Assembly: GCF_965641715.1 (NCBI RefSeq)
Contig: NZ_OZ282453.1
Strand: one strand, 5' to 3'
DNA: 64,000 bases
Source: Escherichia coli
GTDB taxonomy: Bacteria > Pseudomonadota > Gammaproteobacteria > Enterobacterales > Enterobacteriaceae
Every line of letters starts with the position of its first letter. Position 1 is the first letter of the stretch. Below are positions 61,225 to 64,000 of the stretch, one piece after another. A program made the position numbers.

Positions 61225-64000
61225 TAAAACGTGAGGAAATACCTGGATTTTTCCTGGTTATTTTGCCGCAGGTCAGCGTATCGTGAACATCTTTTCCAGT
61301 GTTCAGTATGGTGCCTTGCACGGTAATTATGTCACTGGTTATTAACCAATTTTTCCTGGGGGATAAATGAGCGCGGGAAGCCCAAAATTCACCGTTCGCC
61401 GCATTGCGGCTTTGTCACTGGTTTCGCTATGGCTGGCAGGCTGTTCTGACACTTCAAATCCACCGGCACCGGTCAGCTCCGTTAATGGCAATGCGCCTGC
61501 AAATACCAATTCTGGTATGTTGATTACGCCGCCGCCGAAAATGGGGACGACGTCTACAGCGCAGCAACCGCAAATTCAGCCGGTACAGCAGCCACAAATT
61601 CAGGCTACTCAACAACCGCAAATCCAGCCAGTGCAGCCAGTAGCTCAGCAGCCGGTACAGATGGAAAACGGACGCATCGTCTATAACCGTCAGTATGGGA
61701 ACATTCCGAAAGGCAGTTATAGCGGCAGTACCTATACCGTGAAAAAAGGCGACACACTTTTCTATATCGCCTGGATTACTGGCAACGATTTCCGTGACCT
61801 TGCTCAGCGCAACAATATTCAGGCACCATACGCGCTGAACGTTGGTCAGACCTTACAGGTGGGGAATGCTTCCGGTACGCCAATCACTGGCGGAAATGCC
61901 ATTACCCAGGCCGACGCAGCAGAGCAAGGAGTTGTGATCAAGCCTGCACAAAATTCCACCGTTGCTGTTGCGTCGCAACCGACAATTACGTATTCTGAGT
62001 CTTCGGGTGAACAGAGTGCTAACAAAATGTTGCCGAACAACAAGCCAACTGCGACCACGGTCACAGCGCCTGTAACGGTACCAACAGCAAGCACAACCGA
62101 GCCGACTGTCAGCAGTACATCAACCAGTACGCCTATCTCCACCTGGCGCTGGCCGACTGAGGGCAAAGTGATCGAAACCTTTGGCGCTTCTGAGGGGGGC
62201 AACAAGGGGATTGATATCGCAGGCAGCAAAGGACAGGCAATTATCGCGACCGCAGATGGCCGCGTTGTTTATGCCGGTAACGCGCTGCGCGGCTACGGTA
62301 ATCTGATTATCATCAAACATAATGATGATTACCTGAGTGCCTACGCCCATAACGACACAATGCTGGTCCGGGAACAACAAGAAGTGAAGGCGGGGCAAAA
62401 AATAGCAACCATGGGTAGCACCGGAACCAGTTCAACACGCTTGCATTTTGAAATTCGTTACAAGGGGAAATCCGTAAACCCGCTGCGTTATTTGCCGCAG
62501 CGATAAATCGGCGGAACCAGGCTTTTGCTTGAATGTTCCGTCAAGGGATCACGGGTAGGAGCCACCTTATGAGTCAGAATACGCTGAAAGTTCATGATTT
62601 AAATGAAGATGCGGAATTTGATGAGAACGGAGTTGAGGTTTTTGACGAAAAGGCCTTAGTAGAAGAGGAACCCAGTGATAACGATTTGGCCGAAGAGGAA
62701 CTGTTATCGCAGGGAGCCACACAGCGTGTGTTGGACGCGACTCAGCTTTACCTTGGTGAGATTGGTTATTCACCACTGTTAACGGCCGAAGAAGAAGTTT
62801 ATTTTGCGCGTCGCGCACTGCGTGGAGATGTCGCCTCTCGCCGCCGGATGATCGAGAGTAACTTGCGTCTGGTGGTAAAAATTGCCCGCCGTTATGGCAA
62901 TCGTGGTCTGGCGTTGCTGGACCTTATCGAAGAGGGCAACCTGGGGCTGATCCGCGCGGTAGAGAAGTTTGACCCGGAACGTGGTTTCCGCTTCTCAACA
63001 TACGCAACCTGGTGGATTCGCCAGACGATTGAACGGGCGATTATGAACCAAACCCGTACTATTCGTTTGCCGATTCACATCGTAAAGGAGCTGAACGTTT
63101 ACCTGCGAACCGCACGTGAGTTGTCCCATAAGCTGGACCATGAACCAAGTGCGGAAGAGATCGCAGAGCAACTGGATAAGCCAGTTGATGACGTCAGCCG
63201 TATGCTTCGTCTTAACGAGCGCATTACCTCGGTAGACACCCCGCTGGGTGGTGATTCCGAAAAAGCGTTGCTGGACATCCTGGCCGATGAAAAAGAGAAC
63301 GGTCCGGAAGATACCACGCAAGATGACGATATGAAGCAGAGCATCGTCAAATGGCTGTTCGAGCTGAACGCCAAACAGCGTGAAGTACTGGCACGTCGAT
63401 TCGGTTTGCTGGGGTACGAAGCGGCAACACTGGAAGATGTAGGTCGTGAAATTGGCCTCACCCGTGAACGTGTTCGCCAGATTCAGGTTGAAGGCCTGCG
63501 CCGTTTGCGCGAAATCCTGCAAACGCAGGGGCTGAATATCGAAGCGCTGTTCCGCGAATAAGTAAGCATCTGTCAGAAAGGCCAGTCTCAAGCGAGGCTG
63601 GCCTTTTTCTTTTGTTTGGGAAGCTTGTGTTTTTGTCGCCTGGATAAGACACGTCAGCGTCCTACCCGGCAATTTGCATCCTATGTGTTCATCATCTTGC
63701 GCACCAGCTGCACAAACAGCTCCTGCTCTTCTGCACTCAAACGCCCCAAAAATTCCTCATCCACGCTGTCACCAATCGGTATCGCCGCAGCAAGTATCTT
63801 TTCTCCTTCGGCAGTCAGCCAGACAAAGCGACGCCGCTTGTCAGCGGCATCATGTTCACGTCTGACTAAGCCACGATTCTCCATTCTTGCCAACATTTCT
63901 GCCAACGTTGCTTTGGTGCTGACTGCTGCTTCTATCAGTGCCACCTGTTCGATACCAGGCTTATCAGCAATGGCGCGCATCACCGCATACTGTGGTTTGG

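What the first reader, a model, noticed from the sequence alone, without database searches (positions are those of the whole stretch)
63681..64000. MarR/SlyA-like regulator gene immediately downstream of rpoS
A minus-strand winged-helix MarR-family ORF converges on the rpoS terminator and continues past the window edge. In K-12, as I recall, the gene next to rpoS on this side is a GntP-family transporter (ygbN). The mutS-rpoS interval is a known polymorphic region among E. coli lineages, and this window appears to carry the non-K-12 version.
Basis: partly seen in the sequence, partly recalled or inferred. Interest (0 to 1): 0.45.

Follow-up and report, generated by a model that had tools for sequence, protein, structure and literature searches.

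The report
Known hosA regulator next to rpoS
The minus-strand ORF at the window edge is the last three-quarters of hosA, a well-studied MarR-family repressor of a neighbouring hydroxybenzoate decarboxylase operon, and it lies in the long-known variable stretch between rpoS and mutS that about 44% of complete E. coli genomes carry, so it is real but ordinary.

Summary
Window 63681-64000 (minus strand) encodes codons 31-135 plus the stop of a 135-aa MarR-family protein. That protein is HosA: it is 133/135 identical to PDB 8AGA, "Transcriptional regulator HosA". A public contig identical to the window over 16,371 bases supplies the sequence past base 64000. There the ORF has its ATG start and a GGAG ribosome-binding site. 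It is transcribed divergently from a three-gene non-oxidative hydroxyarylic acid decarboxylase operon (UbiX-like B, UbiD-like C, small D). pphB and mutS follow directly, and the K-12 ygbI-ygbN block is absent. K-12 MG1655 does have ygbN converging on rpoS. This is the O157:H7-type "pattern I" of the mutS-rpoS polymorphic region, described since 1999-2000. hosA sits next to rpoS in 2401 of 5426 complete E. coli genomes. Published work shows that HosA represses the decarboxylase operon and itself through a palindromic operator and is released by 4-hydroxybenzoate. That operator is present in the hosA-decarboxylase spacer. The protein is "SlyA-like" only at family level, since it fails the SlyA orthologue model. 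Verdict: already known, low interest.

The parts
63681..64000 (-). hosA, 3' portion: codons 31-135 plus the TAG stop at 63681-63683. The full gene would span window-equivalent 63681-64088.
   Evidence: Translation. Pfam MarR 42.3 bits on the fragment. 133/135 identity of the full protein to PDB 8AGA HosA. Full ORF in L007 16052-16459, which is 100% identical to the window where they overlap.
63638..63671 (.). REP-like imperfect palindrome (GCCTGGATAAGACACGTCAGCGTCCTACCCGGCA) between the rpoS terminator and the hosA stop. It probably forms a 3' hairpin on the hosA transcript.
   Evidence: Folds as a roughly 15-bp hairpin on the minus strand, -43.4 kcal/mol for the 111-nt stretch, z=-6.1. A related copy lies at 41944-41962, with 0.06 matches expected by chance. 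The pattern IV allele has a more canonical REP sequence at the same place. Its role at the transcript 3' end is inferred.
63575..63618 (+). rpoS intrinsic terminator: a 15-pair stem and T-rich tail. It is the last sequence shared with K-12-type and B2-type genomes.
   Evidence: Terminator scan on L001 14176-14209 plus tail, offset +49399. Inverted repeat I1. Homology with the K-12 type ends at window 63607 and with the B2 type at 63614.
62569..63561 (+). rpoS, intact, 330 aa. It is the conserved flank of the variable region.
   Evidence: ORF list. The protein is identical to the RpoS encoded in L001, L003, L004, L005 and L006.

Best explanation
The ORF is hosA. It encodes a MarR-family winged-helix repressor that controls the adjacent, divergently transcribed non-oxidative hydroxyarylic acid decarboxylase operon (subunits B/C/D, also called kpdBCD, ecdBCD or vdcBCD-like). 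By published biochemistry on near-identical E. coli HosA, the protein binds a palindromic operator (GTTCGTATACGAAC) just upstream of the decarboxylase B gene. This represses both the operon and hosA itself. 4-Hydroxybenzoate binds HosA, releases it from DNA and induces the decarboxylase that removes this compound. The hosA-BCD cassette is one of the alternative gene sets in the mutS-rpoS polymorphic region. This window carries the arrangement rpoS / hosA / BCD / pphB / mutS without ygbI-N, the O157:H7-type 'pattern I'. Shown here: gene identity, completeness, context, presence of the operator and distribution. Taken from the literature: repression, autoregulation and the 4-HBA response. Inferred: that this particular allele and operator behave the same way.
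For: Family and identity: Pfam MarR scores 45.7 bits against a cut-off of 24.6, and the protein is 133/135 identical to seven PDB entries named HosA, E=2.7e-84. The next-best PDB relatives include PcaV, which from my own knowledge senses protocatechuate. Context: B, C and D pass NCBIfam VdcB (308 vs 290), VdcC (787 vs 650) and VdcD (121 vs 30), with the same order in O157:H7 TR01 and H2495, Combat11I9 and L007. Extension: L007 matches the window at 16,371/16,371 bases and shows the complete hosA, BCD, pphB and mutS. Operator: a perfect 16-nt palindrome TGTTCGTATACGAACA lies 17 nt upstream of the B start codon. It matches the HosA binding site used in EMSA and BLI probes, and its core is invariant across alleles. 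Mechanism in the literature: Roy & Ranjan 2016, Biochemistry 55:1120 (cited, summarised). 4-HBA dissociates HosA from DNA, with a 4-HBA KD of 4.7 uM. Region: Ewers 2014 patterns I-IV. Frequency: 2401 of 5426 complete genomes have hosA next to rpoS, and 2380 hold the whole hosA-BCD block.
Against: None against the identity. For the mechanism, the published work used HosA from UMN026 and E2348/69, not this allele, which differs from the PDB sequence at I98V and V126M. In L007, the window's continuation, the operator has an A-to-G change next to the dyad centre (TGTTCGTATGCGAACA). That change is seen in none of 5426 complete genomes and its effect on binding is unknown. HosA has also been reported to affect flagellar motility in EPEC, so the local operon may not be its only target. 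The synonymous to non-synonymous ratio between the two allele classes is unremarkable at 7:5 codons.
Confidence: 0.95

Rival explanations
1. The gene is a SlyA orthologue or global virulence and motility regulator, and the neighbouring decarboxylase operon is incidental.
For: Older annotations call it slyA, for example 'slyA (syn. kpdR)' in Ewers 2014. HosA mutants of EPEC were reported to make less flagellin (summarised). SlyA structures appear among the PDB hits at E about 5e-8.
Against: It scores 30.2 bits on the SlyA equivalog model, whose cut-off is 120. A validated operator sits in the shared spacer with the decarboxylase operon. hosA and BCD are co-inherited: 2380 of 2417 genomes with any match hold at least 80% of the hosA-BCD block. 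A further role in motility is not excluded.
Confidence: 0.1
2. The ORF is a truncated or decaying remnant in this genome, with no start codon beyond the window edge.
For: The window ends inside the gene. Rare carriers have partial regions: 37 of 2417 genomes cover under 80% of the hosA-BCD query, for example strain 06_3044 at 11%.
Against: L007, identical to the window over all 16,371 overlapping bases, has the full 408-nt ORF with ATG and GGAG. The fragment has no frameshift or internal stop.
Confidence: 0.02
3. It is a chance open frame on the strand opposite to nothing, with no gene there.
For: None beyond the general fact that the ORF listing reports many spurious ORFs here, for example the 225-aa antisense ORF inside rpoS.
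Against: Pfam E=7e-11 on the fragment, a solved structure of the product, and annotation as a CDS in every genome inspected.
Confidence: 0

Closest known systems
HosA of E. coli (EPEC E2348/69, PDB 8AGA/8PQ4 and others; UPEC UMN026, Roy & Ranjan 2016)
   Same: 133/135 residues identical. Same position between rpoS and the decarboxylase operon. Same palindromic operator core in the spacer.
   Different: Two substitutions, I98V and V126M, relative to the crystallised protein. In this lineage the operator carries a central A-to-G change. E2348/69-type genomes ('pattern IV') also keep ygbI-N downstream of the operon.
mutS-rpoS polymorphic region, O157:H7/EHEC-1 arrangement ('pattern I' of Ewers et al. 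2014; LeClerc 1999, Herbelin 2000 and Kotewicz 2003, cited there)
   Same: The order is rpoS, slyA-like/hosA, kpdB-C-D, pphB, mutS, with no ygbN (o454).
   Different: The window is not O157:H7. It is 99.57% identical to O157:H7 H2495 over the last 4.4 kb and at best 99.6% to any complete E. coli genome over the last 8 kb. The hosA coding sequence is O157-identical, but the adjoining promoter spacer belongs to the other haplotype.
SlyA and MarR proper (E. coli/Salmonella)
   Same: Same Pfam family and the same winged-helix fold class.
   Different: Far below both equivalog cut-offs: SlyA 30.2 vs 120 and MarR 29.2 vs 240. Different locus and different ligand.
PcaV (Streptomyces coelicolor, PDB 4FHT) and BagL/FevM: MarR regulators linked to aromatic-acid metabolism
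   Same: These are the best non-HosA matches: PcaV at E=3e-16 and BagL/FevM at 88 bits. By their NCBIfam names, BagL/FevM belong to the same bagremycin/ferroverdin biosynthesis system as the UbiX/UbiD-type decarboxylases BagM/BagN, which are the top or listed hits for subunits B and C.
   Different: Below the family cut-off (88 vs 230). Distant organisms and different pathways.

Membership tests
MarR family of transcriptional regulators | Winged helix-turn-helix MarR domain above the curated threshold | tested here: met
   PF01047 scores 45.7 bits (cut-off 24.6) on the full protein and 42.3 bits on the window fragment.
MarR family of transcriptional regulators | Palindromic operator in the spacer shared with a divergently transcribed target gene | tested here: met
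   A 16-nt perfect palindrome at L001 14804-14819 lies between hosA and decarboxylase B and matches the published HosA site. It lies outside the window, at window-equivalent 64203-64218.
MarR family of transcriptional regulators | Small-molecule ligand releases the repressor from DNA | not testable with these tools
   Published for HosA with 4-hydroxybenzoate. Not tested for this allele.
HosA (specific orthologue) | Near-identity to experimentally characterised HosA | tested here: met
   133/135 identical to PDB 8AGA over the full length, E=2.7e-84.
HosA (specific orthologue) | Located between rpoS and the hydroxyarylic acid decarboxylase BCD operon | tested here: met
   B, C and D pass the NCBIfam VdcB/C/D cut-offs.
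SlyA (orthologue sense) | Score above the NCBIfam SlyA equivalog cut-off | tested here: not met
   NF002926 scores 30.2 bits against a cut-off of 120.
mutS-rpoS region, O157:H7-type 'pattern I' | hosA plus decarboxylase BCD present next to rpoS | tested here: met
   The window holds the 3' part of hosA, and L007 (100% identical in the overlap) holds the rest plus BCD.
mutS-rpoS region, O157:H7-type 'pattern I' | ygbI-ygbN (o454) block absent, with decarboxylase D abutting pphB | tested here: met
   In L007, D (18637-18873) is followed by pphB (18914-19570) and mutS. Contrast K-12 and pattern IV strain W2-5.

The most novel reading that the evidence does not exclude
This lineage combines an O157-identical hosA coding sequence with the other promoter-spacer haplotype, and it carries a private A-to-G change at the centre of the HosA operator. 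These differences might weaken repression and make the hydroxybenzoate decarboxylase partly constitutive. Separately, convergent hosA transcription and the REP hairpin abutting the rpoS terminator could make rpoS 3'-end processing, and so RpoS levels, differ between hosA-type and ygbN-type lineages.
Probability: 0.05. Interest if true: 0.3.

Novelty: already known. Interest (0 to 1): 0.08.

Why it matters
It matters little beyond correct annotation. The gene, its structure, its ligand, its operator and the polymorphic region it marks are all published. Three practical points follow. First, the window comes from an E. coli lineage with the O157:H7-type mutS-rpoS arrangement, which is a known typing marker. 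Second, the 'slyA' label should be replaced by hosA. Third, the frequency found here (about 44% of complete genomes, including isolates from water, soil, flour and livestock) argues against the published description of hosA as specific to pathogens.

Tried and rejected
(1) I first took the window to be O157:H7, because the last 601 bases match strain TR01 at 100%. I rejected this after longer comparisons. Identity is 98.5% to TR01 over 11.8 kb and 99.57% to O157:H7 H2495 over 4.4 kb, and no complete E. coli genome exceeds 99.6% over 8 kb. (2) TR01 proved a poor reference for the part beyond the edge: its decarboxylase segment is only 98.4% identical to other O157:H7 genomes. I replaced it with L007, found through the window's distinctive IspD protein. 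(3) LeClerc 1999 (PMC94221) and Herbelin 2000 (PMC110980) are not held in the library, so the region's history is cited through Ewers 2014. (4) My first rpoS translation was off frame, and I redid it correctly. (5) I did not run the large protein-database searches, structure prediction or fold search. Seven solved structures of a 98.5%-identical protein exist, so those searches could not change the verdict. (6) I did not settle whether hosA-BCD is ancestral and was lost in the K-12 lineage or was acquired, because that needs out-group genomes.

Full report
OBSERVATION. The last 2 kb of the window holds rpoS (62569-63561, plus strand, 330 aa, intact). rpoS is followed by a strong intrinsic terminator: a 15-pair stem and T-rich tail at about 63575-63618 (on L001 coordinates with offset +49399). 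On the minus strand a frame is open from the window edge down to a TAG stop at 63683-63681, which is 105 codons. The fragment alone matches Pfam MarR at 42.3 bits against a gathering cut-off of 24.6, E=7e-11.

WHAT IT IS. In genomes that contain the same DNA, the ORF is a 408-nt, 135-aa gene annotated as a MarR-family winged-helix regulator. Its product is 133/135 identical over the full length to seven PDB entries named "Transcriptional regulator HosA" (8AGA and others, E=2.7e-84). The two differences are I98V and V126M. NCBIfam places it far below the equivalog cut-offs for SlyA (30.2 vs 120) and MarR (29.2 vs 240). "SlyA-like" is therefore true only at family level, and the gene is hosA.

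EXTENDING PAST THE EDGE. The window's IspD protein differs from that of all six reference loci I had fetched. An exact-match look-up for it found a 386-kb contig of NCBI assembly GCA_053638755.1 (L007). L007 is identical to the window at all 16,371 overlapping bases, window 47630-64000. In L007 hosA is complete at 16052-16459, equivalent to window 63681-64088. It has an ATG start preceded by GGAG. Beyond hosA lie, divergently, a UbiX-type flavoprotein gene (B), a UbiD-type gene (C) and a small EcdD/BsdD-type gene (D). pphB and mutS then follow on the opposite strand. The O157:H7 versions of B, C and D pass NCBIfam's cut-offs for non-oxidative hydroxyarylic acid decarboxylase subunits VdcB, VdcC and VdcD. 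There is no ygbN.

THE K-12 COMPARISON. K-12 MG1655 has mutS-pphB-ygbI-J-K-L-M-N, with ygbN converging on rpoS (also L002). Similarity between the window and the K-12-type sequence ends at window 63607, and with a B2 (O25:H4) genome at 63614. Both points lie at the T-tail of the rpoS terminator. The B2 genome has a third gene set there, comprising a flavodoxin/FMN-reductase gene interrupted by IS1, an MBL-fold hydrolase gene and then ygbN. Strain W2-5 has a fourth arrangement, hosA-BCD followed by ygbN through ygbI. These are the four "patterns" of Ewers et al. 2014: I is O157:H7/EHEC-1, II is K-12, III is B2/CFT073 and IV is EPEC. That paper cites LeClerc 1999, Herbelin 2000, Culham & Wood 2000 and Kotewicz 2003 for the original descriptions. 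The window is pattern I.

FREQUENCY. Among 5426 complete E. coli genomes, 2401 have the window's 393 bases beyond the terminator and 2380 have at least 80% of the whole hosA-BCD block. The hosA-side sequence falls into two classes. An O157-type class, at least 99% identical to the window, has 376 genomes, and a class 90-95% identical over those 393 bases has 1952 genomes. Within the coding sequence the two classes differ at 13 nucleotides, giving 7 synonymous and 5 non-synonymous codons. Carriers include isolates from river water, soil, flour, livestock and wildlife. Ewers 2014 also found patterns I and IV among faecal commensals. This does not fit the statement in a 2024 preprint that HosA is absent from non-infecting strains.

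HOW IT WORKS. The mechanism is published, and I did not test it. Roy & Ranjan (Biochemistry 2016, 55:1120; citation, summary) showed three things. HosA represses the decarboxylase operon and itself. It binds a palindromic site downstream of the transcription start. 4-Hydroxybenzoate, one of the substrates of the pathway this operon controls, releases it from DNA. Later biosensor work confirmed that 4-HBA dissociates HosA from a 14-bp site and measured a KD of 4.7 uM for the ligand. Here I found that the hosA-B spacer contains a perfect 16-nt palindrome, TGTTCGTATACGAACA, ending 17 nt before the B start codon. It matches the probe sequence used in those experiments, and its core GTTCGTATACGAAC is invariant across the four genomic alleles aligned. 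The closest non-HosA relatives include PcaV and the BagL/FevM model. From my own knowledge, PcaV senses protocatechuate. By their NCBIfam names, BagL/FevM belong to the same bagremycin/ferroverdin biosynthesis system as the UbiX/UbiD-type decarboxylases BagM and BagN. Both links fit a role in sensing aromatic acids. A reported effect of HosA on flagellin in EPEC may be an additional role.

DETAILS AROUND THE GENE. Between the rpoS terminator and the hosA stop lies a REP-like imperfect palindrome at 63638-63671. On the hosA strand it folds into a hairpin of about 15 bp, and the 111-nt stretch has z=-6.1 against shuffles. A related copy is at 41944-41962. The pattern IV allele has a more canonical REP at the same spot. 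It is likely to form the 3' end structure of the hosA transcript, but that is an inference.

MOSAICISM. L007's hosA coding sequence is nucleotide-identical to the O157 allele. The 127-bp promoter spacer that follows differs from O157 at 21 positions and instead matches the haplotype of Combat11I9 and W2-5. A recombination breakpoint therefore sits at the hosA start. L007's operator also has a central A-to-G change (TATACG to TATGCG), and none of the 5426 complete genomes contains that exact 61-mer. These points lie outside the window, and their functional effect is unknown.

VERDICT. The finding is real and was correctly interpreted, but it is already known in every respect: gene, structure, ligand, operator and polymorphic region. 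Interest is low.

Noticed in passing
window 63638-63671; second copy at window 41944-41962: A REP-like imperfect palindrome lies between the rpoS terminator and the hosA stop. It forms a strong hairpin on the minus strand (z=-6.1). A related copy lies elsewhere in the window, and the pattern IV allele has a more canonical REP at the same position.
   Followed up: partly
L007 16459-16599 (window-equivalent 64088-64228, outside the window): There is a sharp mosaic breakpoint at the hosA start codon. The hosA coding sequence is nucleotide-identical to O157:H7, but the 127-bp hosA-decarboxylase spacer differs from O157 at 21 positions and matches the Combat11I9/W2-5 haplotype.
   Followed up: partly
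L007 16574-16589 (window-equivalent 64203-64218, outside the window): In this lineage the HosA operator reads TGTTCGTATGCGAACA, an A-to-G change next to the dyad centre of the published GTTCGTATACGAAC site. No complete E. coli genome (0 of 5426) has the exact surrounding 61-mer. Its effect on repression is unknown, and an assembly error is not excluded.
   Followed up: partly
window 40000-64000 and 1-25000: The window's lineage is not closely represented among 5426 complete E. coli genomes. The best matches are 99.6% over the last 8 kb, 98.5% over the last 24 kb and 99.4% over the first 25 kb. It is identical over 16.4 kb to a contig of NCBI assembly GCA_053638755.1.
   Followed up: partly
L001 14220-17143 (O157:H7 strain TR01): TR01's hosA-decarboxylase segment is only 98.4% identical to other O157:H7 genomes, and its B and C proteins carry accession numbers different from those of the other genomes inspected. 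Either this strain is recombinant here or the assembly has errors, so it is a poor reference for the region.
   Followed up: no
window 52139-52297: A very short CRISPR array (2.6 units of 61 bp) lies downstream of the type I-E cas genes. The adjoining cas5-cas2 stretch (window 49585-52422) is only about 92% identical to the K-12-type locus, and its 3' part (50566-52053) only about 73% to O157:H7 TR01.
   Followed up: no
literature (bioRxiv 10.1101/2024.04.24.590444): The preprint says HosA is absent from non-infecting E. coli and was acquired from Shigella. Here hosA-BCD is found in about 44% of complete E. coli genomes from many non-clinical sources, always at the same chromosomal site, which fits a long-standing polymorphism better.
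   Followed up: partly
window 61565-61629: A 24-nt tandem repeat (2.7 copies) inside nlpD encodes the [12 protein letters not shown] repeats of the NlpD linker. Six of the window's 19 differences from O157:H7 H2495 in the last 4.4 kb fall within nlpD, and one of them lies inside this repeat.
   Followed up: no
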